Source: Sphyrna mokarran
Taxonomy: Eukaryota
Direction: 5' to 3'
NCBI GenBank assembly: GCA_024679065.1
Contig: JAGIQG010000035.1
Coordinates: 7,998,001-8,062,000, forward strand
Length of the DNA stretch: 64,000 nt
Below, one piece after another: positions 2,825 to 54,422 of the stretch. The translations under genes were made by a program, and so were the position numbers. How positions within the stretch are numbered: position 1 is the stretch's first letter; each line of letters starts with the position of its first letter. Below the pieces are notes generated by a model, which was given only the letters and a program-made list of their open reading frames with translations, was not told the origin of the DNA and searched no databases.

Positions 2825-3591
2825 AAAAAATGCATATTAAGTCCTGAAGATGCCATCCTACTAGACATTATTAGCCAAATAATACATAATGTGAAATAGA
2901 CCGAAGTGGGGAGATATTAATAGTTTATCCTTGTGACTGGTGAAGCAAACATTCTACTTTAAAATATTCCTCTTTTGCAAAAAAACTGAAAGCTTCTAGA
3001 TTCTGACTGCTTCACAATTCAACTTTTGATGAGTTAAAAGCACAACCCAAGACAAAAGCAGATGTCAACCATAACCACACCTGGCGGACAGACATTAGTT
3101 GTGTTAAAAGCACACAAATTGTTTCAAATGCTGCAATGCTAAGTCAAATACAGCAAAAGGAATTAAAATACAATGACATGGTTCCTGAGAATTCCTTGGG
3201 GAAATTGCTCAGAATTAATTCACAGTACACTCTTAGCTTAACGAAGTACTTTGACCTTGATTTTTTTTGATGTCCCCATATTCATTAGACCTCTCACTCA
3301 ACCCAATGTCTGATTGGGAGCACTAATGATTAGTCTTCCATTGTGGGTAAGCAGGAATACTACAAAAAAAACTTGGCAATGTTCTTGGTTAAAACCTATT
3401 TTAAACCAGCAGCTGGTCCACCATTTAAGAAATACTTAAGTACACTTAGCAAGTGTCGGGACTATCTGTGTATATTTCTCAAAGATTGTACTGATTTCTC
3501 TATAAAGATTTGGACCCAAACGATTACAGCCTGAAAAAAGGAAGAACACAGGGAACAAAACTAGTGGCGAAGCTACTGAAAGGTTATCTAC

Positions 3592-3899
3592 CTTTGAAGG
3601 CTGTGATGCTGTCGTCATTACAGTTGTTGGCGTGAGGGTCGGCATTGGGGGAGCCGACGTATGTGGCGACACAGTCGTTGTGGGTGGCTGGACAATCAGG
3701 TCAGGCGTTGCAGGAGGAAATGACTGGGGCGTGGGCGCTGGCACCGATACAGAAGGAAGCTGCGGCTGTGGTGGTGGCGGCTGAGAGGCCTGGGGTGTCC
3801 GCTGGGATGGCGGCGGTTGCTGAGTCTGTGCTGGTGCCAAGGACGGCACGGTTGTCTGTGTGGCAGTCTGTACAGTTGACATGTTGGGTTTAGACTGAA
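3592..3899 (-). CDS. brd4: BRD4 coding exon 4 (308 nt, Pro/Thr/Gln-rich linker between BD1 and BD2)
   Basis: (V)QSKPNMSTVQTATQTTVPSLAPAQTQQPPP...FPPATPDLIVQPPTTT...TTASQPSK; acceptor ttttcatttag, donor GTAGAT (weak); phase 1/0; TPDLIVQ motif typical of BRD4. Confidence 0.9.
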
Positions 3900-22665: not shown

Positions 22666-23490
22666 TATTCTTGGCTTTTGCTCTGTCAAGACAAACTGAC
22701 ACTTATAATAGGTTTAATTTTAATTGGAGCCATGGGGCTTTTACAGTTAGCTTCAAATCACTGATCAAGGATTTCCAATATTTGCTGACCATTCAGTGAC
22801 TGCTGCATATTATGGATTTCATATAAAGGAAGGAAAAGTTACCCCCCCCCCCACACACTCATGTCTCTACTTGGTCAAGTTGCAGTTACCAAGCGCACTC
22901 AAAATAGGTGGCTGGTGAGGTAAGAATGTAGTCATAATTCAACAAATCACTGACCAGAAACTGACCACTACAAGGAAATTCATCAGGGTTTCTTTCTTCA
23001 AAAAAAAGTCAAATTTCTAAATTGCATCCATCCTCTCGAGGCAAAGTCAGTTACAGGGGAAACTTCAGCTGATGTCAATCTTGAGCCTGTTGCACATTCA
23101 TATTGTCATGAAGCACCAAGCCTCTACTTGTCAACTTCTAACAACATCAGAAAATTGAAGTGCAATTTCATGTTCTTCATCAGCCATTGGGAAAAGGCAG
23201 TGGACACTAGGTACTTCCCTTGCAAGGCAGGAGCTACAGCAAGGCTGCATGCAAGATATTATGGGTGAGGAAACAAGAATCAATGGCAGGATAGATCAAA
23301 GTGGCTTATTCGCATTTTGTGGAGGGAAAAGCTGTGAGCAGGGAACATGCACAGGTGATGGAGAGAAGTGGGAAAGGGTGCAATGAATACTTATTTAAGT
23401 TTAAATTTGATAATTTCAGATTTTTCTGTAAACTTTCGCTGGTAAAAATAAAGCAAATGGGTAAATTCAAAAGGAAAGCAGGCAACTTAC

Positions 23491-23775
23491 AGGCAGGTTT
23501 AGCTTCACAGCATCCACAGGCTGTTGGAAAGGCCAAGCAAACTGATGTTTCCATATCGTCTTCAGGAGCACTTTTGACAGGAACTGCAACTGATTTGTCA
23601 GCCGTTTGGATCGATTAGGGTTGGATGTTTCAGGAGGGGGTGGATTGCCAATAGCATTACTTGGTTGTTGGGGTTGGGCTTGTGACTGTGTTGAAGACAT
23701 TTGTGTGCTTTCTAGGCCATCCCCCATCGCTGGTAGTTTTCTTAGTCTCTTCCCTGGACCACTTTCACTCGACAT
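23491..23775 (-). CDS. brd4: BET bromodomain protein BRD4, first coding exon (95 codons; N-terminus and start of BD1)
   Basis: Translates [23 protein letters not shown]...[36 protein letters not shown], a BRD4-type N-terminus with the WPF shelf. Acceptor tttcattgcag lies 34 nt upstream of the ATG (exon starts 23809); donor GTAAGT at 23490. Confidence 0.96.
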
Positions 23776-23789
23776 ACCATTGATCCCAT
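23742..23789 (-). promoter_or_regulatory. Out-of-frame uORF overlapping the brd4 start ([15 protein letters not shown])
   Basis: acaATGg context 14 nt upstream of the main ATG, with a second in-frame ATG; 15 codons ending at TAA 23744-23742, inside the CDS. Confidence 0.6.
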
Positions 23790-23809
23790 TGTAGACCTCA
23801 CCTGGTAAC
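23776..23809 (-). other. brd4: 5' UTR portion of the first coding exon of brd4
   Basis: 34 nt between the pyrimidine-tract/CAG acceptor and the initiator ATG; implies an upstream non-coding exon outside the window. Confidence 0.8.
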
Positions 23810-30493: not shown

Positions 30494-32166
30494 ACAAAGA
30501 ACAAAACAGCATGGGAAACAGGCCCTTCGGCCCAACGAGCCTGCGCCATCACCCCGATGTTCCCACCTCTACCCGTGATCCCTGCCTACGCTTATAGATC
30601 TATGGATTAAAAACCAAATTTGAGACAATTTAGGGAGAATTTGTTTTGCCAATTAACCTAAGAGCACATTTTTGGAATGAGGGGGGAAACCAGAGCACTT
30701 GGAGAAAACCGACACAAGCACGGGGAGAATGCGCAAACTCCCACAGACACAGACCCAAATCCATGTATCTGCACAGCACAGCGATAGTCACTGAGCTGTT
30801 GTGTTGCCCATCAAATGGTCCAAGTCAAGCGTACACTAACGACGTGAAGCACTAGGATACTCTCAAAAAAAAATCCAAGAGCAGCCCTCTCACGACCCAT
30901 CTCATGTATGCCCCTTGTTAGACAACAAGGTACACCAAAGCACCTGTAGGATAAAAACAAGTACATCAATATCATCATCTATTTACACACATTCCAGGGA
31001 CTCCCAAGGCTCATGATCCCTATTTTAAATCAGTTTTCTATACCTCTCCATTCCCATTCTGTTCATGTAACCATCTAAGTATTTCTTAAATAACTCCAGA
31101 GTGCCTCCTCCACCACTTTACTTGGCAGCACATTCCATACCCCCACCACCCTACGTGAAAAAACTCCTCTAGCATCCAAATTATACCTTACCCGTCTCAT
31201 CCTAAGCCCATGACCTCTCGTGCTATTCGAGTCCATCCGAAAAAAAAGCTTTACCCTGTTTACTCTATCTATACCTCTCCTAATCTTGTACACGTCTATT
31301 AGATCTCCTCTTAAGTTTACGTCTTTCTAAGGAAAACAGCCCCAATTTGCCTAATCTCTCCTCGTAACTCAGACCTTCCATACCAGGCAGCATCCTGGTA
31401 AACCTCCTCTGCACTCTCTCCAGAGTCTCCACGTCCTTCCGGTAGTAAGGCGACCAGAATTGGACGCAGTATTCCAAATGAGGTCTAACCAACGTTTTAT
31501 ACAACTGCAACATTAAAGGCCAGCTCTTGTACTCTACACCCCGTCCTATAAATGCTAGCATACCATATGCTTTCTTCACAACCTTCTCCACCTGCTCTGC
31601 CACCTTCAGAAACTTGTGCACCTGCACCCCCACGTCCCTCTGCGTTTCTATACTCTTAATAGGTCTACCCTTTATCATATACCTCCCCCTACATTCTTTC
31701 TCCTGAAATGCATCACCTCACATTTATCAGGATTGAATTCCATCTGCCAACTATCTGCCCAAGCTACCAGCCTACATCCTGCTGCATCGCCTGACAATGC
31801 TCCTCACTATCCGCAAGTCCAGCCATCTTTGTATCGTCTGCAAACTTGATCACTCCACTTACTCCCTTTTCTAAGTCATTTATATATATTACAAACAGAA
31901 GAGGTCCCAGTACCGAGCCCTGCGGCACACCACTAGTGACCAAACTCCAGCTAGAAAAACACCCTTCCACTATTACTCTCTGTCTCCTATTACCAAGCCA
32001 GTTACTTATCCATCTAGCTACCTGTCCTTGTATCCCACGAGCCTGGACCTTTTCAACCAACCTCCCATGAGGGACTTTGTCAAATGCCTTACTGAAATCC
32101 ATATAGACGACATCAATGGCTCGCCCTTCGTCGAGCATTTTCGTCACCTCCTCAAAAAATTCCACC
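30494..32166 (-). mobile_element. Young CR1 LINE, 5' truncated (RT C-half plus long 3' UTR)
   Basis: ORFs 31764-32264, 31280-31678 and 31075-31293 give DVVYMDFSKAFDKVPHGRL, SGVPQGSVLGPLLFVIYINDL, KFADDTK and LYKTLVRPHLEYCVQFWSP; tail GGGCCGAAGGGCCTGTTTCCC..GCTGTTTTGTTCTTTGT. Confidence 0.95.
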
Positions 32167-35259: not shown

Positions 35260-36369
35260 CCCAGCCCTGTCTGCACACGCAAATCAGCCCATTTCAGAAC
35301 TTCCCAACTGAAGTCCATTAAATAAATTACATTACATATGTTCTCCAGTACTGACTGATTGACACTTCCAGTGCACCACGGCAAAAAACAGGATCAATCT
35401 CCTGAGGAGGAGCGAGGAGACAGTACCCTTTGTCATCCAATAGTTCCTCGGAGCAGAGAAGCTGCAACATCTTCTCCACAGCCTTCAACATGTTTGTCTT
35501 CATTGATGACATCTCACCAAGGTCATCCCCACACTCCCATTACTTGCCTTGAACAATCATGCAACCTCAAACAGATCACAGTCCTCACCAAACTATGCAG
35601 CCTTCAGGAGAACAGTGACCACAAAAATCACACTTTCCTGCCTCAGAACCTCTGCAAAATGTAGTGAACCATCGACATGGATGTCATCTCACAAGAATAC
35701 CATCCACCAGGCTAATGGTATATACTCTTGCAATTTGATGAAATGTTGTCTACCTGATACATCCCAAGGCATGGTACATTGGCCAGACTAAGCAGATGCT
35801 ATGACAACGAATGAATGGATACCGTTCAACAATCACCAGGCAGCAGTGTCCCTTTCCTGTTGGGGAACACTTCAGCAATCATGTGCGTTCAACCTCTGAT
35901 CTTTGGGTAAATATTCTCCAAGACGGCTTGCACAACACAATATAGAATTGCAGAGCAAAACCAATTGCCAAGTTCCGCACATTGAGGACAGCCTCAAAAC
36001 TAGGAACTTGGGTTTACGTCACACTACCTGTAACCCCCACAACATGCCTAGGCTTGCAAAATCTCACTAACTGTCCTAGCTTGAGACAATTTACACCTCT
36101 TTAACCTGTACTTAACCCACTCTCCATTTGCATGCACCTGTAAAGACCTGATTACCTGTTAAGACTTGCATTCCAACCATTACCTTGTAAACTGAGTCTG
36201 TGCCTATATGTCCCCCCCATTGGGTTTGTGAACCCAATTCTTCACTCACCTGATGGAGCAGTGCTCCAAAAGCTTGTGCCACCAAATAAACCTACTGGGC
36301 TTTAACCTGGCGTTGTGAGACTTCTTACTAAACCTATCCCAATCCAACATTGGTATCTACACATCATGA
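35260..36369 (+). mobile_element. Penelope-like element: RT thumb and GIY-YIG relic plus pLTR with degenerate hammerhead ribozyme
   Basis: Nucleotide similarity to the GIY-YIG ORF at 48041 (gttgtctacctgatac, ggtacattggccagac, ggggaacacttcagc); 3' end cacctgatggagcagtgctccaaaagcttgtg...aatccaacattggtatctacacatcatg. The left boundary is approximate. Confidence 0.85.
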
Positions 36370-37094
36370 TTGAATCCTGAGACTGGAACCAAAAAATGAT
36401 CCTGGCTACACCCTCAAAGCTCAAAATTTAAGAAAAAAATGGAATGTTTCACAGACAGTGCTCAAACACTCCTCCTTCTCCCATCACAGACTGAAAAAAA
36501 TGCAAATGATTCAGCAGAATTTAATCCAACCGTTAGAATTGTGATGAGGTAGTGAAACCAAAGGCTTGAAGACAAAGCTTTAGTCATGAGTCACAGATAA
36601 TTACATGAATTTGTACGGAGGATGCAGTAGATAGGAATTGCAAGAATCACTGAATGAATGGCCTGAGGAAAGAGCAGAACAGGTTGCAGAGGCTGCTGTA
36701 ATGAATGAGTGGCTTATGTTCTGCCACTGTGTATAAGAATATCACTAGCAAATTCTGTGAACCTGAGGAGGAGGAGGAGGAGAAGAACAGAAAAACAGAA
36801 GCAAGAGAAAAGCAAAGATAGAGAAAATTCAAGTCACAAAGTAACAAAGCAGAAACCAGAAGCAGGGAATGTTTTACATGGGATTATTGCAGTTGAGCTC
36901 TTTTCAATTTCTATGTCTGGATATTTGGTTGTATTTCTCTCAACCTCCCTCTAACTGGAAATGTTAGAAGCCTCAGGCTTTTTTTCTGGGCCTGGAGATA
37001 AAGGCCAATTCATGACATTGCAAAGAGGCTGCCCTAAAATTGGGCAAAGACCAAATAAGGATCAGCATTTTTCAGTCCTCTGGTCCAAATACTA

Positions 37095-37325
37095 CATGAT
37101 GTAGAGATGCCAGCGTTGGACTGGGGTAAACTCACTAAAGTTTGACAACACCAATTTTAAATCCATCAATTTATTTCATAGCAAATCTGCATGCTTTCGG
37201 CCTTTGTGGCCTTCACCAGGCAAATGAGGTCACCTCATTCGCCTGATGAAGGCCACAAAGGCCGAAAGCTCACAGATTTACTATCAAATAAATCGGTTGG
37301 ATTTAAAATTGGTGTTGCCAAACTT
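37095..37325. mobile_element. Fold-back Penelope pLTR fragment with 11-bp target-site duplication
   Basis: Inverted arms of about 92 bp (37138-37230 and 37233-37325); TSD caaatactaca at 37086-37096 and 37326-37336. Confidence 0.9.
37237..37277 (+). ncRNA. Minimal type-I hammerhead ribozyme motif (degenerate helix I)
   Basis: attcgc-CTGATGA-a-GGCC-acaaa-GGCC-GAAA-gc-TC-acagat: intact core boxes and stem II, palindromic AGCT stem III. Confidence 0.7.
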
Positions 37326-37951
37326 CAAATACTACAAACATTCTAAATGAAAAAAGAATGCCAACTAGGCCTTGGTCCAAATCAAAAAGCATCCTTGTCA
37401 CATATATTCCAAGGCCCCACCCCACCCCATCATGTGGAACAACATAGAAGTGGGAGATCCATTAAGTGGAGCAGGCCATGACATCACTACAGATATAGTA
37501 TGCGCTAATTCTGGGACTGGACATACTCACCAGTCACTGACGTGTATTTTCTAAAAGCAAGAGAACCAGCCTACCAAAAAGAGGGTTAGAACACTTATTG
37601 GGCACACACAGGCTTTATGGAACATGGACATTTAGCCTTTGCTACACTTTATTTTTAGTATGTAATTCTATTGCAAGTTTCTCAACTTTTCCTGTCTTGA
37701 AACCTTAAAGAAAATTACATCTTTTAACAGTTTACCAGATGTGCTCATCAATTTGATAGAGACACCATCGACTTAAAGGCCTCAAGTAAGCACGTCACCT
37801 TGTGACAAAACGCTAACCATCAATGGCTACCAGCAAAGCAGAAAATATCCACTTATAAATTTACTGTGAAATTGCAAAAATAAACATAATATCCCATATA
37901 GTCACAACAGTTAACAGATTTTACTTGAAGCTGCAGCATGATCCAATTAGC

Positions 37952-37981
37952 TTGTTTGAATTGTTTGAACTGTTTGAACTG
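37952..37981. repeat. 9-bp tandem repeat (tgtttgaay x3)
   Basis: ttgtttgaattgtttgaactgtttgaactg. Confidence 0.8.
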
Positions 37982-40129
37982 ACAGGCTGTGAAATGGATT
38001 TTTACATAAGCCATGACAATTTGTTCAGACAGCTCAAAACAAACCTGGCTTTGTTTCAAGTGGATTCACTGCTGCACTGTCCCAGTCATACTATAAAGGA
38101 AATTAATCAATACCATAAACATGCAACAATGGGCCTGCCAAAATTATTTGAACTTAACTCCAACTCACTGGAACTGCCACAACATTAGCTTATTTCCATC
38201 AAGTTCACACATGAAGCTTGAAGCATTTCACAAGGCAAACTGTTCGATTGACTAGTGTTCTGAAAATGTAGTTATTGCTAGCAAATGAATTAAGCGATCA
38301 AGTATATACAATTATACATAAATCATTATGGGAAATGCATTATTTATTGTTTAATTAATTGCATTCAATAGATTCAGCGCAAGTTATTTGTCTTTATTTA
38401 CCAGCTTTAAAATCAATTTGAAGTTACAGTAAAACAAACTGACTGAACTAAACAAAATGGCTGGCAAACACTTTCTTGTATATTCACATGTAGGAAGTAT
38501 TCCATTTCTAATTATAGCAATGAGACAAGGAAGACTGTCACTTAGAAGTACAAGTCAGCTGCAAAGTGAAATAGCAATCCATTAAAGTGGCTTGGTGAAC
38601 AAAATGGAATGTCTATTGAAAAAGTACACAATACTCATTAACAGGCATTAAAGCTGCATTATATTTTGCTTTGCAATTGGCAGCCATTGTGAAGATACAC
38701 CATTCCTCGATGTTTAACTACAACCCAATTCAAACAATTTTGTCAATCATGTTTCCATGCAGAAAGATACTTTACCACGGAGGGCAAAGATCAATAGATC
38801 AACACAGTGAGGATAAGGGGAATATTGAAGCATAACTCAAGAAAACACTTTTGTGCGCAGAGGCAAAATGCAAGGTGAAAGAAAACAAGGCTGTTCAGGT
38901 GTGACTGGAATTGGCAGAGAGAAATGAGATGGAGAGACTGGTACCTGGAATATGTACGAGTAGTGATTACAATTGTAACTGAGAAGCTGACATGGTGAAA
39001 CAGAATAGAGATCTCAAAATTAACTGACAATGGACCTCTGTTTGAACTTCACAAGGACTTGTCACGGTTGATCTACAAGACTTGAGATGGGGACAATGAA
39101 GCATGCATGCCCTGCTTTCAAAAGTTGCAGTTTGTGAGAAATTGCTGATCAAGTTAAACAGAGGAAATAAAGATGTAGGTTCAGCAGTTATGGTAGGTGC
39201 AAGTGATAGCAATGTTTTCAAAGGATGTCTCAGAATAATAGGCATTCTTGCAACTTGGTTTGAGGTAGGGTGGAAGACTGTAGACATTAAATTACAGAAG
39301 AGTTGCTAGTGCAGAATCAAAGGGAGAGGGAAAGGGACAAGAAAAGAAACACGAGATGTGTGAAAAGCAAGATATGAATAGCTGCCATCTGAAAGCAAAA
39401 ACAAAGAAAAACAAGACTAAGATCAAAACATGCATTAAGGAAACAAAAATAGGCCCGCACCACCATCTCTTATCATTGCAGGTACTTTCAGAAGTGCAAC
39501 AGAATTTATAAAAGGAAGAAGATTTTTAGAAGGTTTTTAGACAATGTCCCTGATAGATCTGACGTAGAGTCCAGTAGGCTGTAGTGTCTAATCAAAAGAC
39601 AAATTGTTTGAGCTTGTGCTGAGCTTCATTAGAACACTAAAGTAAACCGAGGAGAGGTCAGCATGAGAGCAGGGCAAAAAATTAAAATAGCAAGCAAGGA
39701 GTCATTTGGTAGTACAAAACTTGTGTACTGCTGAAAAAAGGAGATGTGCATGCTCTTTTTTTTCCAACAATACTCAAATTTTTGCAAGCAGTATAGAAGG
39801 CCATTTAGCCAGCCATGCAGATCTGGCTTTCAGAAAGCAGTCATGCTGTGTGTTCTATTCTAGAGCACCAACTGGTAAAAGATATTTATAAATTCACATT
39901 ACAAGCATTCACCTTCTAAAACCACCCCATACTCTCTCCTGCCAGTTTTAAGTGTCTCTTTATATGTGCTCAAGTGCACCATCAACTGTTGTTCTCCACC
40001 TGCATGAAACAATCACCATGCAATTTATCTTTCATCTGTTTGCATACAATCTGTAGGTTTCCAAAATATCTGCTCAACTCGCCTTAAAATCAATTGCTTG
40101 GTAGCATAGAACTTGAATGTCGATGGAGA

Positions 40130-40700
40130 GATGCGTGTTGATAAATTTTTCATCTTGCACTCATCAGAACAAACAAGAATTTCAAATAATCACAACAATT
40201 AATACTGTAGGAGAAAAGGGTGCAATTGACCAAGGCCTTGTCATGGAGAAAGCCTAAATGTCCTAACCTCCTGGATAATCCAAAAAAAACACACAAGCAT
40301 ATTCTTTTACTTATATTACTCTAAGAGTTTGGCCAATTGGCTTAAATTGTAAGTTATTAATTCTGCGATTCAGTGGCAATGGAACTCTCCTGAGTGCACT
40401 AACAACCAATTTAAGCTCATCAGTTGAACTCATAACTTGGATCATTAACACTTGCTAGAAGTGATGTATATTATACACAGGACCTGCTCTCTGCAAACAA
40501 AAGGAATACGTTCAAGCAAAGGGCCTTTTTTCCCCAAAAGAGCCTGGGGACAGTTTCCAATTGTTTTCTCCATGGCAATGCCGTGGCTAGTCGATCTGCA
40601 AACCGATCAGCATCTTTTCTCCCATGTTATAAATTGTTTGAAATTTGGCATTTATGTGTTTTGTCCCAATGAATGCATGATGAAAACCTTTGATAAACGT
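40130..40700. mobile_element. Old Penelope-like element with inverted pLTRs, each with a hammerhead relic
   Basis: Arm 40130-40255 is a diverged reverse complement of 40560-40700; cores tgttCTGATGAgtgcaagatGAAA (minus) and tgtcccaatgaatgcatgatGAAAacctttgata (plus). Confidence 0.65.
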
Positions 40701-40809
40701 TAACTTTTTCAGCAATGCCCATCTTAAAATTTATGCCTCGAGTAGAACACTCCAGATCTAACAAGCCAGTGAAATCTTTTGCCAATGGTTCCAAACCCAT
40801 GAGCACCCA

Positions 40810-41043
40810 GGGCACACAGGAGTAAAGTGGTTAGCACTGCTGCTTCAGTGCCAGGAACTCTGGTTCAATTCCCAACACTGTCTGTGTGGAGTTTGCACAT
40901 TCTTTCCGTGCCTGCATGGGTTTCCTCCCAGTCTGAAAGATGTGGTTAGATACATTGAACTGAACAGGTGCTGGAGTGTGATGACTAGGGGAATTTCATT
41001 GTAGTGTTAATGTAAGCCTTGTGACTAATAAATAAACTTTTAA
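40810..41043 (+). mobile_element. V-SINE, alternative-tail type, internally deleted
   Basis: gtggttagcactgctgc...ggttcaattccc...gtctgtgtggagtttgcacattct...gtgttaatgtaagccttgtgactaataaataaacttt. Confidence 0.85.
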
Positions 41044-41226
41044 ATATCCTGGTTATTTGACCCATTTGTCAGGAGAAACAGTTTTTTTCTTTCAAAATCC
41101 TACACCACCCGTAAAACTTCCATTAGGTCAATACTTAACTATCTTTGCTCCAACGAACAATCATAACTTTTTCAATCTTTATTCCTAATTGAAATACAAC
41201 AACAATGTTTACACCTTTCCAGCTTT

Positions 41227-41529
41227 TAAAGTTTATTTTCATGCCCCAAGTAGGTTGACATTAATATTGCAATGAAGTTACTGTGAAAACCTTGTAATTG
41301 CCACACTGCAACACCTGTTCTGGTACACTGAGGGAGAATTTAGCATGGCCAATGCAGCTAACCAGCACATCTTTCGGACTGTGGTAGGAAATTGGAACAC
41401 CCAGAGGAAACATACACATACATGGGGAGAACGTGCAAACTCCGCACAGGCAGTGAGCCAAGCCGGGATCAAACTCACGTCTCTGGCGCTGAGGCAGCAG
41501 TGCTAACCATTGTACCACCGTGCTGCCCC
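41227..41529 (-). mobile_element. V-SINE, alternative-tail type, full length
   Basis: Minus-strand head ggggcagcacggtggtacaatggttagcactgctgcc, V-domain, and tail ...acagtaacttcattgcaatattaatgtc...aataaacttt. Confidence 0.9.
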
Positions 41530-44490
41530 AGTTGACACTCAACTTTTGATTTATAAAGCACTAGCATGATCTTGCTTTCATTCCATGTACTGGTAAAGAA
41601 AGTGATCCATACGTATTTTAATCACCTTATAAAATTGCCCTGCCATCTTTAAAAATTTGTATGCATGAACTCAAATGTGTTTCACCTAAGCTTTGCAATA
41701 AATAATTATGACCCAGAATGCACAATTGAAGAGTAAAGATAGATCCAATCATAGCTTTTGTAAGGAAACTGAATAATCATCAGTAGAGAAAACATCAAGA
41801 TCACAGGTACAGCAGGGAAGTGAAACTAGTCAAGTTCCACTTGCAGAGAGCTGGCACAGACACAGCAGGTCAACTTCCTCCCTTTATGATGTGGCTAATC
41901 AATCCACAGCTTTTATAAGTTTCCTTCATCCCCAATAACTTCCCAATACTGGCGTTAGGCTGACAGGCCTGTACCTTCCAGGTTGATTCCTCTCTCCTTT
42001 CTTGAAATGTATATAGCAATAAAGCATTAGCAACTATCCAACTTCCCAGCCCTACTGCATTCAGCTAGGATTGCAAGATGGCAACCAGTGCCTACGTATT
42101 TCTGTCTTTGCTTCTTTCAGCAACTTGGGATGCATCACATCTGAATCAACTGACTTACCTTTTAAGCAATGCTTTTGTGTGTCTTCTCCAACTACTATCC
42201 TGCCCAAAAGTTCCCTCTCTCTTTTAGCGCAACCTTTTCATCATATACTTCTGACAGAGGCAAATACTAAATTACCTTAGCTACATCTCTTAAGAGAAGA
42301 TTTTCCTCTGGATCTCAAGTGTTTTATGCTTCAATTTAATACTAATCTTTCCTTGTAGTCTTTACCTCAATTTTAAGAGACAATTTCAAGTTAAATTAAA
42401 ATATTTGTGCTCTCATCCACGACTCATTTTCTTTCACCACAGCACAAGGAATTACCAGACTTGTATTGACACACAGCACATTGTGGCATAACTTCTATTT
42501 TGTGTTCCACAAATTTATTTTCCCAACCGCAATTATTTGTAGTTTTATTTTTTATTTACTTTCAAAAAAGGGTTTTTGTCTAGTCGTAAGAAATTGGATT
42601 GTCCAGCTAAGAAGGTGCATTTAGTCAGCACGGATGGAACAGGGAAACACGATTCTTTTTCTCCAGTGCTTCAAATATGTTAACACTTAAAATAACTCGG
42701 CTCAAAACTTTGACTCAAAATTGCTAGCAGTATAATGCTGTCCACTCTTGTCTCAAAACATTGCACAGTAAGAGCTTGCCCTCAGCTGAATGTGATTAAC
42801 AAGTAATGCAACCTAAATCCAATTTGAATACTGCCAACAGGCATTAAATTGAACCTGCACAACATAACCAAGATATACCTTGGAACAATATTCTTTTATG
42901 GCCATTTAATAACGAGCAACTAGAACTAAATTCAATCTCCTTCCTTCCATTCATAATTCAGCTTTTACACTGCAATTTCCTAAACAAATTACTTCAATTA
43001 TAGTTCAAACATGATATTTTTATTGGTTCAGCGAACATGTAAAAACTTGTAGGTTTAACTAACTGCTTAAAGCACAAGTTGCACTTTCAAGCCAAAGAGC
43101 AACAGTTACAAGATGAGCATCTTAAAATGAATAAGCTTCCAAACAGTGACTAAGAGTAAAAGACTTCACTTTGTCAGCCATATTACCAATTCACTGATTC
43201 CTAATTATTTCTCCGTAGTGATGAATGTCACATTTCAAAAAATCATATCATAAAATACATGGTAGAAGCACTTAATGTGGTGCAACTGAATGAAGAGACA
43301 TTCCCAAAGACATCTGTAGTTCATGGGAATAAAGCACTTATTCATCACGCCAGAGTACTCTCTATTAGTACAGTACATTCAATGAATTTGCAGTGTGTAC
43401 AGGGGCTAAATCTGTAATGCACTCTGGTGAACAAAGCTAAAAATGAATTTCGATCATAAACTCTTAACGCTGACTGATACAACATGTTAGCGCTAACAGC
43501 ATACAGTAACATTCCTGACCTAGCATGCCAAAACTAACACGCTGCTCCACAGAATCAGAACAATTAACTGTGTATTAAGTTACCGATTCAGTTAAAACTA
43601 GGAACAAAATCAATGAGACACAACCTAAACTTCAATAACTTTTGTAAGTCAGAACACTACACAACTTTATTGAAATGAAGGTTTAATTGTGTAGTTTCAC
43701 TCCTTGGCTGAATGTAACAATTGTATTTCTACAATGACAAAAAGAAAGGTTGCTCGTGGATAAAGCAAAGTGCCCAGTTGTTATGTCTCATTATATAGCA
43801 TTTCACCTTCTAAAACCAAGATTATTTTAAGTGGCTATACCAGTAACAGGTGAACACATTTGAGTACTTGACTTAGGAATTTGCTTAGGTGATCTTTTTA
43901 ATGGTACAGATCTCTGTACATAGCCTGATAAAAACACCTCAATTTCCACCTCAAGTTTCCAACAAAAAGCTACATCTAGTGGCACAACAGCTAAAATATA
44001 GTCCAAAACACAAGTCTGTAAAGTTGCCAACAACTCAAAACTGCACTGAGAAATAACACTGACAAAGCTCATTTTTGGCTTCCTCTAATGGTGTAGAATC
44101 CCTGAACAAGCAACCTTCAAAATTTAAACATCTAACATTCAAGCAAAACAATCTCAGATAAAATAACTAGAACTTAATTTTGATGGTGATTAGCTCATGC
44201 AAATAATTTCACAAAATTAATATATATTGACCACTTATAATACAAGGGTCCGCATTACAACAGCATCACATGCCTGTCTTCAAAATGTGAGGATGCACCT
44301 AACCTTACTTTAACATCCTGTTAGAACCCCAAGCGAGGCCATTATGAACTTCTTGTAGTAACTGAAAGAATAACTCAAAATTTAATGTTTAAAACCAAAA
44401 CCTCTGATGTACAAAAGTTAAACAAAGCAAACACTAGCAACACTATTTTTTTGAACACTTATACGTTAAAAAGCAAAAGTAACAGTTCAG

Positions 44491-44748
44491 GCTGCCTCAA
44501 TGCCAGAGACCCAGGTTCAATTCCTGGCTTGTATCACTGTGTAAGTTTGCACATTCTCTCCATGTCTATGAGGATTTTCTCCAGATGCTCCACTTTCCAC
44601 CCATACTCCAAAGATGGGCAGTTTAGGTAGACTGGCCTCTTGGGTAAATGCATGGAATTCTGAGGATAGGGCCAGGGTGGGATTGTGGTCTGAGCAGACT
44701 GAATGGGCTGAAAAGTTTCCTTTTGCAGTGTAGAATTCTATGATTCTA
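44491..44748 (+). mobile_element. HE1-like V-SINE with CR1-type tail
   Basis: ccaggttcaattcctggc...gtttgcacattctctcc...gggtgggattgtggtc...tgggctgaa...gtgtagaattctatgattcta. Confidence 0.85.
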
Positions 44749-45417
44749 ATTCCCCTACACTTGACAAGATCTTGAGGGCTCCTCCAGTTCTCCAGGACCA
44801 ACCATGGTGCATCACAAATCTCAGAAATTCACACTCTGTTCCTACTATTCCAGAGATATAGGACTTCTTGGATTCTTCCACGAGCATCCAAGTAGGGAAA
44901 CACTCAACTTTCCTTCAACCCCTTACAATTGTGACTTGCCAGCTCAAACTTCACTACGTTCTTGTAGACTGACTCCAACTCAGAAAACATCCATGGGTTC
45001 TGATAGCTCCTTTGCTCCTGGTTCAAGCTGCTTTTTACATCTCCTGCAAATATTTTCTGGCTGTCCTTGCAATATATTCCCACAGCAATGTGCCAGAGCT
45101 TGGATGATTGAATAGAGATTTAAACCAATTAACTACCTTGAAAACATCCCTTTAATTCTGGAACACAAATAGTTTCTTTCTATTGAAATCTTGCTAGACT
45201 CAATGGCTCCATTACAAAGCTCAGAGAGCCATGTTTATTGTTTTCACACTTTAAAACTGATTCCTTTATGTAAATTTGGACTATCCTTTGAATTATCTTA
45301 AGATTGCTTACTAGCCTCAAACTCATTTGTCCTTTTACCTTGCATCTAAAATTTAAATTCCCAAAGCAGAATTTATACTCCTAAAACAAATTATAGAGTT
45401 AGATATTCTTACGGACT

Positions 45418-46092
45418 CTGGAAATGAGAAGTAAAAGAAAATACTAGAAATACAATATCTGTGGCGAATGAATATTTCAAGGTCAAAAAGTTAGAGATTT
45501 ATTTGTGGGGGAGAGGGTTGGAGTGGTTTGGGAGAAGGGGTGCCCTGTATTAGGGTAGAAGGCAGCAAAGAAAAAGGATAATAGTGCGAAGTAAAAGGAG
45601 ATGGTAATGGTACAAAAGTTGAGTCCAAAAGGTGGTGTAAAATGTGTTAGCAGATTCAGCAGCTGTCTGAGGGAAAATGAGGGCAGAGGTCATGATTTGC
45701 AGAATTCAGTGTTGAGTACAATGTCAATCAAAACTTCCATTTAAGCAGCAGAGCATTCCAGACTTAGGACCTTTAACTTCAAATCCAAACATCATCTCCC
45801 ATTTTATCCCAACAAACAGCTGTTGCCAATAATACTATCCATTTTCACCCCCAGACCCATATTTTTATTTATCCAATTTCCATCTTATTGTGTCTCGCAC
45901 CACTGATTCTTTCAGCCATTTAATCTGCCTTCCATTCAGTCCCTTCCTGGCCTCCCACCATTTCCCTAAATCTTGCTTAAAACATGTAAATTTTCCAGTC
46001 CTAATCAAGTTATTGACCTAAAATATTCATTCCATTTTCCTCTTTCTATGGTTACTGACTGACCTAGTTATTTCCAACATCTTAAATTTCAT
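45418..46092. mobile_element. Very old Penelope-type element with degenerate inverted termini
   Basis: Left gaatgaatatttcaaggtcaa is complementary to right ttgacctaaaatattcattc; right end ctgactgacctagttatttccaacat. Confidence 0.45.
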
Positions 46093-46483
46093 TGAAATAA
46101 CACTTATACAATTGAATGTACAACATTGTTAAGATGACTCAGATATGGTGACTCATTCTCTCATAACTAAACCTGCTTGTGGCAGTCTCCTACCCTACAG
46201 CCAGCCAGTTGGGTGGTCACATCTGGCTTGAGGATGACTGCTTCTATACCCACATGGTCTTCTGGGAAATTGTGATGGTATCATGCGAATTAGTTATTCT
46301 GGCTGCATTCCAGATTCCTTAAAATCTGGCACAGCTCATTTTTACTGATTGGATTCTATGATTTCTCATTAGTAGTCTTGATTGCAATTTGTTGTATACT
46401 TCAAAAGCTTACATGCTAAGCAGCTAAACTGGGGAACTTAATAAACTTTCATAAATGCAAGTTACTAACACCATTCCTTACTT

Positions 46484-46941
46484 GGTGACAGTGGTTAGCA
46501 CTCCTGCCTCAGAGCCAGGAACCTGGGTTTGATACCTGGCTTGGGTCACTGTACTGAGTTTGCACATTCTCCCATGTCTGTGCGAGTTTCCTCAGGTGCT
46601 CCAATTTCCTCCCACAGTCCAAAAGAGTTAAAGTTTATTTATTAGCCACAAGCAAGGCTTACATTAACACTGCAATGAAGTTACTGTGGAATTTCCCTAG
46701 TCACCACACTCAGCACTTGTTTGGGACCAATGCACACTCTGATGAAGTGCACTGGCCATACTAAATTCTCCCCTGGCACCCGTTCAGGTACTCAGGGGGA
46801 GAATTTAGCAAAGCCGATGCATCTAACCAGTGCATGCATTGACCCCAAACAAACAATAGAATGTGGCGACTAGGGGATTTTTACAGTAACTTCACTGCAG
46901 TGTTAATATAAGCCTACTTGTGACACTAATAAGTTAAACTT
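46484..46941 (+). mobile_element. Composite V-SINE with nested inverted SINE segments (fold-back)
   Basis: Plus head 46484-46625, minus tail 46631-46734, short inverted body pair 46747-46821, plus tail 46835-46941. Confidence 0.85.
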
Positions 46942-48011
46942 ACTTTGCCGGTTCAGAGGAACAGTTAATAAGCAACTTAGACAGGCAAACAAACATGCCA
47001 CACTCAGTACTTTAGCAAAGTGGCCACAAACATGATTATCTGTGCCGGAATAATTTAAGAATTATGAACACACTGATTCACGCAGTGATACCTTTAAACT
47101 GACACTAATCTGGTGTTAGTAGAGCTCCCAGTATGGCAGAGTATTGTATCTGCCAACTGCATTTGCAATCTGTGAACAAACAGAGCAATTCCAATCGGAT
47201 CACAAGAGTTAGTTAGAATTAATAGTCCAGAATCTGTGCTTGGCTCTTGAATGTGGCCACATTTCTGCTAACTGTTGGGCAGCAATCAACAATCAAAGCA
47301 CAATTTACACCTGGCAAACCTAATTACACATCTTGGGCATTGAAATGATCAGCCAAGTGATTACAGTTTTTTGGATCAATTTTGCACCAGCAGAAATAAG
47401 CGTGTAACGTATCAATGTGCTGCAATTGTGTAGATAATACCCAGTATCCATTTAAAATAAACAGATTTCTGTGAACTGATATCAGATGAAAACTCCAAGC
47501 AGCTAATCACATTCACAATTCCATCAGTTTCCTACAGAAACCACCGCATTTCCTCCCAAGCAAATGTAGCTTACTTCTCCCCTCACCCGCTCTCTGCAAC
47601 CATATCAATTTTGAAATCTTCCCAGCTAAGGAACTGCGTATCTGAAAAGTACTAAAGTTTTGATTAAATGGTTCCTCAAGTGGCTAAAAATCAATAATCT
47701 TATTAAACACAGTTGAGTTTCCCCAACAGGCAATGGACAGAGCAGCATATTGTTCTACACAAAGACCAAAAAGGTCTCAGACATCTTATTTATGCTGAGT
47801 TAATTTACCCCGTCAAGGATGTATTTTGTGTCCAACTTCAAATGGTTTAGGAAAATGAAAAAAAAAGGATAGAGTTATTGCTCCTGAATATCCTGCACTA
47901 GCTATCAGCTGAACTGTGTCAACTTCTATCTATGTCACCAACCACACACTAGAATGACTGGTTGGAGGGGATACCATAGGAATGCCAATTGAGCTGTGCC
48001 TTGTTTAAAGT

Positions 48012-48668
48012 CATGATGTAGAGGTACACGGTACATACTCTTGCAATCGGCCGACGTTGTCTACCTAATACATTGCAAGAAAGGATGTCCCGAAGCATGG
48101 CACATTGGGGAGACCATGCAGACACTACGACAGCGGATGAATGAACATCGCTCAACAATCACCAGGCAAAACAGTTCCCTTCCTGTGGGCGAACACTTCA
48201 GCAGTCACAGGCATTCAGCCTCCGACCTTCGGGTAAATGTTCTTCAAGGGGGCCTTCCTGACACACGACAGCGCAGAGTCGCTGAGCAGAGACTGATAGC
48301 CAAGTTTCGCACACGAGGACGGTCTTAACAAGGATCTTGGCTTCATGTCACACTACCTATAACCCCTGTGACTTGCCTGGGTTCGCAAAAAAAACCTCAC
48401 TTACTGTGCTGTCTGGAGAAAATACACATTTCTCTAACAAATGCTCAGGGTTCCCTTCACACACATTGTTAGCCACTTTAACACTTGAATAGCAGGTTAG
48501 GTGTAAGGATTCACATTCTAATCAGCAATCTGTGACTGTCTGTACTGATATGTGTGCTATTGCAGACCAGAACACTGCATTTGCTTGACAAAGATGAAAA
48601 AGTTGAAAGCTCGCAGATTTACTATCAAATAAATCAGTTGGATTTAAAATGGTGTTGCCAGATTCTTA
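48012..48668 (+). mobile_element. Penelope-like element, 5' truncated: GIY-YIG endonuclease plus pLTR, 15-bp TSD
   Basis: ORF 48041-48328 VVYLIHC..CPEAWHIGETMQTLRQRMNEH...VGEHFS...RRVAEQRLIAKF is a PLE GIY-YIG domain; TSD ccttgtttaaagtca at 47999-48013 and 48669-48683. Confidence 0.93.
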
Positions 48669-49361
48669 CCTTGTTTAAAGTCAACAGTTTCAAGAGAAGA
48701 TGAAAATCTAGGATTCAAGCTGTGTGTGTACTCAACTAGATGATAAAAGTTTACAACAGATAGAGTATTAAATATGGTGTATTTGAATCAGGGAACAATG
48801 GGCATTAGTTATATTTAATCTGAAACTCAAGTTGTTACCACTTTGCTGTATGCCTATCAAATTACACAAAGAAAACGATGCATTAAGTTAATCCCTAGAG
48901 AAAAATATTGCTGATACGAAGCATAAGGCTGCAAGTGAGTAAAAATCTGGGCTTTATCTCAAGATAGGTGAGGGAACATGCAGGCTTGGCACCTCTCGAC
49001 ACAAAAGCAGGTTAGATACTAGTTTGAAACATGCTATCCTCATTATGCATGGTCTAGCAAATGGGAAGACAAAAATCAACTGCTTGTTTAAATCAATACA
49101 ATTAGCCATAGATTCATATTCCATTTTTGCCTGCATACACAAAATGGAACATATCTACAAATGGTTACATTACCCAACAGGTTCCACTCGTGACACTTAT
49201 TATTGAGCCAATCCTATAAGCAACCAGGTCCCCCATTATGTCTCTGCTAATAGTAGACATCATCATAATTATATCACAAACTTCATTCTATCATTGCAAG
49301 AAAGGGTATTTAGTTATAACCAAGAAAACAGAAATAGGATGCACCATATAAATATAAAAAA

Positions 49362-50421: not shown

Positions 50422-51400
50422 TAGAACAAAGAACAAAACAGCACGGGAAACAGGCCCTTCGGCCCAACGAGCCCATGCCGCCATGTTCCCACCTCTACCC
50501 ATGATCCCTGTCTACGTTTATAGATCTACGGATTAAAAACCAAATTTGAGACAATTTAGGGAGAATTTGTTTTGCCAATTAGCCTAAGAGCACATCTTTG
50601 GGATGTGGGAGGAAACCGGAGCACCCGGAGAAAACCCACGCAAGCACGGGGAGAATGCGCAAACTCCCACAGACACAGGTCCAAATCCATGTATCTGCAC
50701 AGCACAGCAATAGTCACTGAGCTGTCGTGTTGCCCATCAAATGGTCCAGGTCAAACATACACTAACGACGTGACGCACTAGGATACTCTCGAAAAAGATC
50801 CAAGAGCAGCCCTCTCACGACCCATCGCTCATATGCCCCTTGTTAGACAACAAGGTGGACAAAAGCACCTGTAGGATAAAAACAAGTACATCAATACCAT
50901 CTATTTACACACTTCCCAGGGACTCTCAAGGCTCATGATCCCTATTTTAAATCAGTTTTCTATATCCTCCATTCCCATTCTGTTCATGTGCCCATCTAAG
51001 TATTTCTTAAATAACTCCAGAGTACCTGCCTCCACCACTTTACTTGGCAGCGCATTCCATACCCACACCACCCTCTGTGTGAAAAAACTCCCTCTAGCAT
51101 CCAAATTATACCTTACCCCCCTCACCCTAAGCCCGTGACCCCTCGTGCTATTTGAGTCCATCCTAGAAAAAAGCTTAACCCTGTTTACTCTATCTATCCC
51201 CTTCATAATCTTGTACACCTCTATTAGATCTCCTCTAAGTCTACGTCTTTCTAAGGAAAACAGTCCCAATTTGCCTAACCTCTCCTCGTAACTCAGACCT
51301 TCCATACCAGGCAGCATCCTGGTAAACATCCTCTGCACTCTCTCCAGAGTCTCCACGTCCTTCCGGTAGTAAGACAACCAGAACTGGATGCAGTATTCCA
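50422..51400 (-). mobile_element. Young CR1 LINE, same subfamily as 30494-32166, more 5' truncated
   Basis: ORF LEYCIQFW..YYRKDVETLERVQR...RRLRGDLIEVYKIMKG...TRGHGL...FFTQRVV; 3' UTR nearly colinear with 30494-31030. Confidence 0.95.
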
Positions 51401-53203
51401 AAAGAAAACAGATGCGTGCAAGAATCATTGAGGAAATGTCTACCTACAGTTACTGCACACACAAAGAATTAGAGCTTGGATAAAATGCGGGAGGAGCAGC
51501 CAACATCTGTGAAAACATACTTCAGCTTCACTCAAAGCCTTCAGAAGTGGAGGAAGTGGAAGGGTAGAGCAACTTGCGAACTACAGTTCTTTTTAATTAT
51601 TCCCTCATTTGTGGTATTTGCAACAGTGGAACTTTTAGTATAGCATGGAGCAGAGAAAGGTTTTAGGAGTGTATTGATCTGTGCTGTGGGCACAAAACAT
51701 GGTCAGAATCTGAGATTTACTGCAGAACAAACAAAGCAAAAAACATCACAGAGATGATAGCGAACTGGGAGCTTTTTTTTTTGCCCTTTATCCACTATCC
51801 TCTTCATTTATGGATCATTTTCTCAATCATCTGCGATGTGACCATGCTCTCAACTTATTTCACTGCTAAGCATTGGCAACAGCTCAGTCTGCAAAGTTCT
51901 CCAGAACCAACTGCGTGAACATTAAAAAACCTGCCATTTTGTAATTCCTGAATTTCAGGCTAAAATAATGCATCAAGGTCTCCAGGATTGTAAACTCTTA
52001 TTTGCAGGATACCAGAGAATGCCAACAAAAGTAGTGAATTTTGCCAGGCACATTAAAACGCGTAAGTCTGAACACTAATGGCTGAAACATTTAAATAATA
52101 AAAGTACCCTTAATATGACTATGTTACTGTAGCTGAGAGCCTAAAAATAAACAAAACTGGTCAACCCCAGTAGTTTCCCTACCAATACTTGTAGCATAAT
52201 TCATCACCTCAAAATACTGAAACAACACCACTGCCAGTACATTAAGATTGCATTAGGCAGGCAATGACTAGCCAAACTGGTAAGTCAATCTCAATGTGCA
52301 AAGCAAAGAGGAATTACTGCCTCCTGTTCTTGAGTCACCTACTGCCATCAAGGTATGATTTCAATTACGTTAGTCTTTAATCACTGAAATAACTGATCTG
52401 GGACAGATGATAGACAATTCACATTATTCTACCTTCTTCAAAACAATATATGCCTAGTAAAAATAGCGACTACTGGACTGAACAAGTATAATAGCTTAGT
52501 GAAACTGGAATCCAACTTCATTAATACCTAACCTTAGTATATAGGTATAAATATGCTATAAGCAAAATAAAACTGGATAAAAGCCACACGTTTTCACATT
52601 TTGCCAAAAAGGTTTAATTTTTCATGTCAAGTGCTCACTATTTCTGCTTTCCTCACACTTACTTAAAATATGTTTGACACTGATCTAACTTTAGAGAAAA
52701 TTGTCAATAGAGAGATGAAACAACTTAATCCTATTTTGTTAGGCTGAATAAAGCTTTATTTGAAAAAACCTCTAGTGGTATCATCTCTCATGGTATGGTA
52801 TCCAGCTCCATCTCATCCAGCGTTCCTTCATGATACTTAATTGAAAAAGCCTTTAGTCCTTGCCTCAATCCTGCACCATCTCTCCTTTCACCCTCTCACC
52901 CCCCCCACCCCGTTCACTTAATTTCCCTTCCCACACCTGCCTCCCTTCCCCACTCTGTTTTCCCCTCCCCCTCCATCTTCAAAATGGTCAAACAAGCCGT
53001 TCAAATAAACCATTCCAACAAAGGACAGTAGCAATTCAAAGCAGTAATTTACCAACTCCTTCTAAACAGCAATTCAGGATGAGAAACAAATATGCCTTGG
53101 CAGCAACACCCACATTCTCTGAATAATTACAACAGTCAATTATTTTTCCCAGAATTCAGGTGGAGAGATTGAAATGGCCAAAGATTACATGAGAGAAAGA
53201 GTG

Positions 53204-53878: not shown

Positions 53879-54288
53879 AAAGTAGGACATTGCTCATGCA
53901 TATCCCACAAAAAAGGAGAGCAAAATCCAATTAGAAGGCCTTCACTTCATCAAAATCTACCTGGGTTGAAGGTAGCAATAAAACATGAGATGTCTGCAAT
54001 GGAAATTCTTTTTGACAATTATCAAGTGGCACTTAGTCAAATCACCTCAACCCTCAAGACCACTCAACAATAGACACTGAGGGGAAAATTCTCCATTGGC
54101 TGCAGCTCAAAAGGGCAGCCCAAATACATCACCACAGGGATTCCTGAGAATATTGTCTTACACCAATCATCAATATTTTAAATAAATGACTTTCCCTCCG
54201 TTGTGGCCTCAGAAGTATGATTGATGTTTCCACAGTATTCAACTGCATTTGCACTTCCTCAAATAATGAAGCTATCCATGGCCACACA

Positions 54289-54414
54289 GTAAGAGTCTGA
54301 CAACACCAATTTTAAATCCAACCGATTTATTAAGAAATCGGTTGGATTTAAAATTGGTGTTGTCAGACTCTTACAGAGTTTACCCCAGTCCAACGCCGGC
54401 ATCTCTACATCATG
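54289..54414. mobile_element. Penelope pLTR terminus forming a perfect 40-bp hairpin plus tail, 12-bp TSD
   Basis: Arms 54289-54328 and 54335-54374 are exact reverse complements (loop attaag); tail ccccagtccaacgccggcatctctacatcatg; catggccacaca duplicated at 54277-54288 and 54411-54422. Confidence 0.92.
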
Positions 54415-54422
54415 GCCACACA

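What the first reader, a model, noticed from the sequence alone, without database searches (positions are those of the whole stretch)
36244..48620. At least three Penelope families with minimal hammerhead ribozymes showing different stems
Seen: (a) 36248-36278 CAC-CTGATG-[GGAGC agt GCTCC]-aAAA-GC-TT-GTG, with the G shared and the core partly deleted; (b) 37237-37277, its inverted arm and 48579-48618, giving an inferred consensus ATTTGC-CTGATGA-A-GGCC acaaa GGCC-GAAA-GC-TC-GCAGAT; (c) 40136-40171 (minus) and 40662-40695, TGTY-CTGATGA-GTGCAAGAT-GAAA. Core boxes recur while stems I and II differ yet pair, and stem III is a short palindrome (AGCT). Knowledge: Penelope pLTRs carry minimal type-I hammerheads thought to act as dimers. 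Every copy here has some damage. The minus-strand ones lie within brd4 pre-mRNA, where activity would cut the transcript.
Basis: partly seen in the sequence, partly recalled or inferred. Interest (0 to 1): 0.7.

Follow-up and report, generated by a model that had tools for sequence, protein, structure and literature searches.

The report
Decayed shark Penelope hammerhead ribozymes
These are broken leftovers of a small self-cutting RNA motif that Penelope-type jumping genes are already known to carry, likely inert in an intron of a shark gene; the one fresh point is that a sister lineage elsewhere in the genome spread to hundreds of copies despite a change predicted to disable the ribozyme.

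Summary
The six motifs are real. They are decayed minimal type I hammerheads from the end repeats (pLTRs) of Penelope-like retroelements: three Neptune-type subfamilies (a, b1, b2) and one Poseidon-type family (c). Copies with undamaged core boxes exist genome-wide (206, 93, 67+112 exact matches; reversed controls 0), and stems covary between subfamilies. This is the known min-HHR of Cervera and De la Pena 2014, and the scan has noted it in many other shark windows. All window copies are damaged; the two on the brd4 sense strand (likely intron 1) are unlikely to cut the transcript. New, outside the window: a sister subfamily of b carries G8A (C3·A8 mismatch) in 62 of 100 listed copies against 5 for the mirror CpG change, with 640 identical copies and one insertion with an open RT-endonuclease frame. 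That points to spread without a working ribozyme core, matching an in vitro result for an anole element. Truncated copies pile up at the start of stem I, not at the cut.

The parts
35416..36367 (+). 5'-truncated Neptune-type Penelope-like element, family a: decayed ORF end (linker and GIY-YIG), pLTR and tail
   Evidence: BLASTN to natural relatives 35416-36106 and 36045-36327; translation; tail read
36247..36278 (+). Family a hammerhead remnant; 3 nt deleted from the CUGAUGA-A box and G12A: predicted dead; antisense to brd4
   Evidence: intact form 206 times in the genome
37086..37336 (.). Head-to-head stub insertion of subfamily b1 with an 11-bp target duplication (37086-37096, 37326-37336), 76-nt arms and a one-sided tail
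   Evidence: inverted repeat I9; duplication
37237..37277 (+). Subfamily b1 hammerhead; core intact, two mismatches in stem I, sequestered in the fold-back; antisense to brd4
37185..37225 (-). Inverted b1 hammerhead; A6G and U16.1A: predicted dead; sense to brd4
40136..40223 (-). Poseidon-type family c pLTR stub; hammerhead at 40136-40171 with core boxes present, U11.1, broken palindrome; sense to brd4
   Evidence: BLASTN to family c loci E 3e-18; fold
40662..40695 (+). Family c hammerhead remnant; U4C, G5A, G10.1A: predicted dead
48022..48669 (+). 5'-truncated Neptune-type element, subfamily b2: GIY-YIG end (48017-48325) and pLTR
   Evidence: 93% identity over 653 nt to the element in L328; Pfam GIY-YIG E 0.008, below the curated cut-off
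48579..48618 (+). Subfamily b2 hammerhead remnant; U3 and A8, stem II decayed to two G·U pairs and one A-U; antisense to brd4
54277..54422 (.). Further b-type head-to-head stub that begins behind the ribozyme (no hammerhead), 12-bp target duplication
   Evidence: inverted repeat I20
23491..23809 (-). First coding exon of brd4; the intron upstream of it (23810 to about 11 kb beyond the window end) holds all the motifs
   Evidence: PDB best match BRD4, E 3e-45; acceptor; candidate exon 1 and donor in L152

Best explanation
The motifs are damaged minimal hammerhead sequences in truncated ends of Penelope-like retrotransposons, and are likely inert passengers in what is probably brd4 intron 1. Shown: family membership, stem covariation between subfamilies, damage dominated by CpG decay. 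Inferred for the source elements: the pLTR holds a promoter, the RNA starts at or just before stem I, two RNAs pair through the AGCU (a, b) or AAGCUU (c) palindrome to form stem III, and each core cuts the partner strand after UH17, removing a 35-50-nt front end or splitting tandem transcripts. Inferred: this cut is an accessory step and the uncut RNA is a template for insertion, because truncated copies end at the start of stem I and not at the cut, and because a lineage with a C3·A8 mismatch multiplied.
For: Copy counts with zero controls. Coding ends upstream. In 75 b-type copies chosen by their tail, not by the ribozyme, stem II pair 2 is A-U in 38 and G-C in 27 (70 of 75 paired, shuffle mean 56). 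Across 214 core-intact copies stem I pairs 2 and 3 switch between G-C and A-U and between C-G and U-A (sample partly chosen by stem patterns). Decay: 33 of those 75 keep an intact core; 4 of 18 alignable family c copies chosen by their coding end keep the boxes, none with C11.1. TATA to first A of the leader is 29-31 nt in 20 of 29 measurable c copies. 5' ends: 17 in the 10 positions before C3, 2 in the 7 positions at the cut, 6 in 22 positions behind it, of 84 copies. G8A lineage. Literature: PMC4209133, PMC11167929, PMC8557442.
Against: No cleavage was measured. Nearest-neighbour energies do not favour the dimer over two monomers for a and b. Stem I covariation is not significant inside the tail-selected b set (pair 3: 53 of 75, shuffle 50.8; C·A mismatch in 20), and shuffles ignore relatedness, so the independent changes are few. 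A first sample, without a downstream control, showed 8 of 95 copies starting within -1 to +3 of the cut (p 0.04); in it the positions -10 to -1 were not richer than -25 to -11 (p 0.27). Transcription starts were not mapped. The exon 1 to exon 2 join of brd4 was not seen directly.
Confidence: 0.85

Rival explanations
1. The cut is needed for copying, and the A8 lineage was rescued in trans: in the dimer one strand supplies the core and the other the cut site, so A8 RNAs (which keep AGCU, UC and a perfect 6-bp stem I) could be cut by G8 sisters.
For: A8 copies keep the substrate side intact; G8 sisters of the same age exist (divergence 2.5% against 2.0%, p 0.88); 4 of 14 inverted pairs listed have one A8 and one G8 arm (counted by hand), which fits templates from two RNAs.
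Against: No pile of 5' ends at the cut in this subfamily; catalytic mutants of the anole element insert normally in vitro (PMC11167929).
Confidence: 0.2
2. G8A is not inherited but arises again and again at a mutational or editing hot spot, or C3·A8 keeps enough activity.
For: The long A8 and G8 copies differ in this one column only and the tree is star-like; 9 of 13 A8 copies form one clade with weak support, 0.83; discordant arms in 4 of 14 pairs. The papers that measured G8A were not held, so its effect is recalled.
Against: The same local context gives A8 in 1 of 13 copies of the b2 subfamily, 0 of 19 longer-loop sisters against 27 of 44 short-loop copies (read), and 12 of 100 U3 copies, equal to the mirror change (14). 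G8C and C3G abolish cleavage of a PLE hammerhead (PMC11167929).
Confidence: 0.15
3. A sense-strand copy cuts or regulates the brd4 pre-mRNA.
For: Two copies lie on the brd4 strand; 40136-40171 keeps all core boxes on one alignment.
Against: The other has lost A6 and U16.1; 40136-40171 has a hammerhead fold of +2.1 against -9.4 kcal/mol for its best fold, no palindrome and no partner.
Confidence: 0.03
4. The motifs are chance matches.
For: Weak excess inside the window alone; no Rfam hit; a very loose pattern matched its control equally (287 against 285).
Against: Hundreds of exact family copies with zero controls, fixed position behind the ORF, covariation.
Confidence: 0.01

Closest known systems
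Minimal hammerheads (min-HHR) in pLTRs of metazoan Penelope-like elements (Cervera and De la Pena 2014, PMC4209133)
   Same: CUGANGA, one extra base before G10.1, G10.1-C11.1, GAAA, palindromic 15.2-16.2, UH, short stem I, many stem variants per genome, inverted pairs; the turtle row of their Fig. S2 has the same AGCU.
   Different: No shark found in the two supplementary files searched. Family c lacks the extra base, has a 2-bp stem II and a 6-nt palindrome. No amplified family with an unpaired C3·A8 is described in the parts read; they describe the paired U3-A8.
Neptune and Penelope/Poseidon clades of EN+ PLEs (Craig et al. 2021, PMC8557442)
   Same: RT followed by GIY-YIG, pLTR, tail, inverted 5'-truncated copy; a and b have the C-x4-CxxC linker (Neptune/Nematis type), c lacks it (Penelope/Poseidon).
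   Different: Clade names rest on the linker motif only; no tree with labelled references was built.
PAc (Poseidon of Anolis) hammerhead (Frangieh et al. 2024, PMC11167929)
   Same: C3/G8 single mutants do not cleave yet insert; no RNA ends at the cut; uncut RNA as template.
   Different: That is an in vitro result; the A8 lineage here would be a natural counterpart in a Neptune-type element.
Hammerheads with a 1-2 bp stem II and a pseudoknot (Perreault et al. 2011, PMC3088659)
   Same: Family c has a 2-bp stem II, and its leader UCUUG(C) is complementary to the stem II loop.
   Different: Their tested case is a type II ribozyme from a metagenome; here no covariation could be shown and the same pairing can form an inhibitory hairpin.
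Non-LTR retrozymes (bioRxiv 10.64898/2026.07.22.740005)
   Same: Derived from PLE pLTRs with type I hammerheads; reported as depleted in Xenopus introns.
   Different: Retrozymes are tandem arrays; the window copies are single or head-to-head stubs.

Membership tests
min-HHR of metazoan PLEs | Core CUGANGA / GAAA / UH | tested here: met
   Family copies. Of six window copies only 37237-37277 and, on one alignment, 40136-40171 keep it.
min-HHR of metazoan PLEs | Extra base between A9 and G10.1, G10.1-C11.1 pair | tested here: met
   a, b1, b2. Not family c: see next row.
min-HHR of metazoan PLEs (family c) | Extra base before G10.1 and long stem II | tested here: not met
   c has no extra base and a 2-bp stem II; two rows of the paper's own Fig. 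S2 also lack the extra base, so c is filed as a PLE hammerhead variant, not as the typical form.
min-HHR of metazoan PLEs | Palindromic, minimal stem III | tested here: met
   AGCT with GC loop in 73 of 75; AAGCTT in c (selected by the search pattern, but also the majority in ORF-selected copies).
min-HHR of metazoan PLEs | Covariation of stems between families | tested here: met
   Stem II: (unbiased). Stem I: (between a and b; not significant within b). Not testable for c.
min-HHR of metazoan PLEs | Located in a pLTR behind an RT/GIY-YIG ORF | tested here: met
min-HHR of metazoan PLEs | Self-cleavage as a dimer | not testable with these tools
   Energies uninformative for a and b.
Neptune-type EN+ PLE (a, b) | CX2-5CxxC linker before GIY-YIG | tested here: met
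   does not separate Neptune from Nematis
Penelope/Poseidon EN+ PLE (c) | GIY-YIG with CCHH and no linker zinc finger | tested here: met
   (relatives P0121, P0125, P0126)
Neptune or Poseidon clade | Placement in an RT tree with labelled references | not tested
   No labelled references were at hand.
U3-A8 covariant hammerhead subfamily | U3 linked to A8 | tested here: not met
   Among the first 100 of 133 U3 copies: A8 12, U7 14, CpG intact 74.
Non-LTR retrozyme | Head-to-tail tandem units each with a hammerhead | tested here: not met
   Window copies are single or inverted.

The most novel reading that the evidence does not exclude
A Neptune-type subfamily in this shark genome multiplied to roughly a thousand copies from source elements whose hammerhead core carried G8A, a natural knock-out showing in a living genome that self-cleavage in cis is not needed for Penelope retrotransposition; copies are made from uncut RNA that starts at stem I. 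A second, weaker idea: family c uses a leader-to-loop II pseudoknot around a 1-2 bp stem II at the very 5' end of its RNA.
Probability: 0.55. Interest if true: 0.55.

Novelty: new member of a known kind. Interest (0 to 1): 0.33.

Why it matters
The window motifs themselves matter little: they are dead members of a published class. The role of the hammerhead in Penelope elements is, however, described as unclear (PMC8557442), and the only direct test is in vitro (PMC11167929). A young lineage with a mismatched core, G8 sisters about 2% diverged and a copy with a long open frame give a matched natural pair for cleavage, trans-rescue and retrotransposition assays. Family c offers a compact test of whether a vertebrate PLE hammerhead uses a pseudoknot.

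Tried and rejected
Rfam scan: no hammerhead hit, only hairpin-driven miRNA models. U3-A8 covariant subfamily for the 48.6-kb copy: rejected. Family c as a DIRS/Ngaro or retrozyme-type repeat: dropped once the PLE ORF end was found. Pile of 5' ends at the cut site: weak in the first sample, absent once a downstream control was added (one subfamily group only, about 40% A8). A8 copies as younger than G8 copies: not supported by divergence. Covariation for the family c pseudoknot: a metagenome scan gave 19 hits, none with family c flanks. Single decayed c translations found nothing in Pfam or the homolog search and did not align to the Neptune protein; only the alignment search worked. A very loose no-bulge pattern matched its control. 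No RNA holder listed on record; laying four runs on the brd4 coding exon gave no records. Sense-strand depletion in introns: not testable, no annotation and too few copies in this gene. Dimer energies: uninformative. Not in print, as far as searched: searches found no report of shark PLE hammerhead families or of an amplified core-mutant family; Lunse et al. 2017, supplementary file 1 of PMC4209133 and the bioRxiv supplements could not be seen and may bear on this.
Full report
Observation. In the window alone a loose core pattern is barely above chance (3 against a mean of 0.6, maximum 4 in 30 resamples) and Rfam shows no hammerhead. The genome (G000, 2.77 Gb; closest protein relatives are from sharks) settles it: exact motifs with undamaged core boxes occur 206 times for family a, 93 for b1, 67 and 112 for c, and a general Neptune-type pattern 1170 times, always with 0 for the reversed control. 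A 32-nt piece of the b-type tail occurs 10,938 times.

What the elements are. Families a and b sit about 250-300 nt behind the end of a GIY-YIG frame and share a C-x4-CxxC linker, which PMC8557442 (passages read) gives as the mark of Neptune and Nematis. A relative in L328 has a 696-aa open frame with RVT_1 (E 6e-9) and GIY-YIG (E 4e-4, below the cut-off). Family c is older (about 70-75% identity between copies). Its upstream sequence is the end of another PLE frame without that linker; an alignment of six natural stretches finds 7 proteins, two of them with an RT domain and two with GIY-YIG. I call a and b Neptune-type and c Poseidon-type on this motif alone. The 37.2-kb pair is a head-to-head stub with an 11-bp target duplication and a one-sided tail, the layout drawn in PMC8557442.

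Corrections. Family c has no extra base before G10.1, a 2-bp stem II and the palindrome AAGCTT.

Structure. Of 95 b-type copies chosen by their tail (the first 100 listed of 10,938, less those lost to short flanks, duplicates or not fetched), 75 could be parsed. Stem II pair 2 is A-U in 38 and G-C in 27 (70 paired, shuffle mean 56); the AGCT palindrome is kept in 73; stem I shows no significant covariation within this set and a C·A mismatch in 20. Over all 214 core-intact copies fetched, stem I pairs 2 and 3 switch between G-C and A-U and between C-G and U-A, but this sample was partly chosen by stem patterns and shuffles ignore descent. This matches the min-HHR consensus of PMC4209133 (text parts 1-2 of 4 and part 2 of supplementary file 2 read), whose authors found low activity and only in dimers. 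The review PMC6765202 (section 11, part 2) says the same and cites Lunse et al. 2017, which was not held.

State of the window copies. a: three bases deleted in the first box and G12A. b1 plus: core intact, two stem I mismatches, inside a fold-back of -92.9 kcal/mol. b1 minus: A6G and U16.1A. b2: U3, A8, decayed stem II. c minus: boxes present, hammerhead fold +2.1 against -9.4 kcal/mol, palindrome broken. c plus: U4C, G5A. Genome-wide the motif decays freely: 33 of 75 b-type cores intact, 4 of 18 alignable c copies (of 29 chosen by their coding end) with intact boxes.

Host gene. The minus-strand exon at 23491-23809 is brd4. A CpG island lies 10.5-12 kb beyond the window end. Contigs from two runs (RNA is a guess; X1, X6) lie on its minus strand and leave the genome at the same base; a GTGAGT donor is there, and the two extra matched letters equal the first two letters of the coding exon. 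So the motifs likely lie in a 51-kb intron 1; the join itself was not seen (empty). Only the two minus-strand copies are sense, and both are predicted inert.

Where copies begin. Earlier notes of this scan suggested piles of 5' ends at the motif start or at the cut, so I tested both. First sample: 8 of 95 within -1 to +3 of the cut (p 0.04, no downstream control), 15 in the ten bases before C3, not more than in the 15 bases further up (p 0.27). Second sample, anchored 27 nt behind the cut (84 of the first 85 listed of 3393): 6 ends in 22 positions behind the cut, 2 in 7 at the cut, 10 in 28 inside the motif, 17 in the 10 positions before C3, 12 in the next 15 (p 7e-7 against uniform, 0.03 against the next bin). 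The samples overlap in part. In family c a TATA box lies 29-31 nt before the leader in 20 of 29 measurable copies. I infer that the RNA starts at or just before stem I and that uncut RNA is copied; no start site was mapped.

The A8 lineage (outside the window). In the tail-selected set G8A (25) far outnumbered the mirror CpG change C7U (4). One sister subfamily of b explains it: of 1787 matches, the first 100 listed have A8 in 62, U7 in 5 and the intact CpG in 33 (counted by hand; p 1e-13), while another CpG in the same copies decays evenly (14 and 13). One A8 34-mer with both other CpGs intact occurs 640 times. In the sample chosen without regard to the ribozyme A8 is in 27 of 65, U7 in 3; read by eye, 27 of 44 short-loop copies and 0 of 19 longer-loop sisters. 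L328 is an insertion with a target duplication, A8 in both arms and the open frame. Against a clean lineage: the long A8 and G8 copies differ only in this column, are equally diverged (2.5% and 2.0%), the tree is weakly resolved, and 4 of 14 inverted pairs have one arm of each kind. C3 and G8 form a pair in the active core (PMC3088659, section 8); G8C and C3G abolish cleavage of the anole PLE hammerhead without affecting insertion in vitro (PMC11167929, part 1 and passages). That G8A alone is likewise crippling is recalled, not read (searches gave no measurement). The U3-A8 pair in the window's 48.6-kb copy is not a covariant subfamily.

Family c leader. TCTTG lies 5-20 nt before the core in 24 of 60 copies (background 0.7) and is complementary to the stem II loop. 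It may form a pseudoknot like that of hammerheads with 1-2 bp stem II (PMC3088659, passages) or an inhibitory hairpin, which is what folding predicts. No covariation could be obtained.

Verdict. Real, correctly identified in kind, known in print and noted many times by this scan in sharks (446 notes hold the search words; 27 in this genome). Retrozyme depletion in introns is reported for Xenopus (bioRxiv 10.64898/2026.07.22.740005, part 1 and passages). The A8 lineage did not turn up in four look-ups of earlier notes or in the paper searches, with the gaps named under Tried and rejected. Interest 0.33.

Noticed in passing
G000:C1:29802500-29806000 (L328) and 1787 matches: Sister subfamily of b with G8A in most copies; L328 has both arms A8, a target duplication and a 696-aa open RT-endonuclease frame.
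   Followed up: yes
A second sub-lineage of the same subfamily has U11.1 (G·U at the first pair of stem II) in 19 of 56 copies against 6 for the mirror change, mostly with G8.
   Followed up: partly
G000:C1:74339429, C2:93370355 and about 15 more rows: A fourth, young hammerhead family not present in the window, with a canonical-looking stem II and a longer stem III (GAAAC-AGCT).
   Followed up: no
inverted pairs on C1: 4 of 14 head-to-head pairs have arms that differ at core position 8, as if copied from two RNA molecules.
   Followed up: partly
family c loci L031-L150: The pLTR has repeated CCAAT boxes, an X-box-like motif (name recalled) and a TATA box about 30 nt before the leader of the ribozyme.
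   Followed up: partly
window 54277-54422; L151 about 3555-3646: Further head-to-head PLE stubs; the one in the window has a 12-bp duplication and no ribozyme.
   Followed up: partly
window 30552-31481 and 50478-51405: Two copies, about 90% alike, of a roughly 1-kb unit made of a SINE-like piece joined to a LINE 3' end, 19.9 kb apart; a similar piece lies in L152.
   Followed up: no
L152:967-1301 (minus): Candidate non-coding exon 1 of brd4 in a CpG island; an LRRC8-like gene and AKAP8-like frames (name recalled) lie further on.
   Followed up: partly
window 23166-23183 (minus) and about 46730 (plus): Two more CTGATGA boxes without hammerhead stems; no family c homology at the ribozyme; likely chance.
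   Followed up: partly
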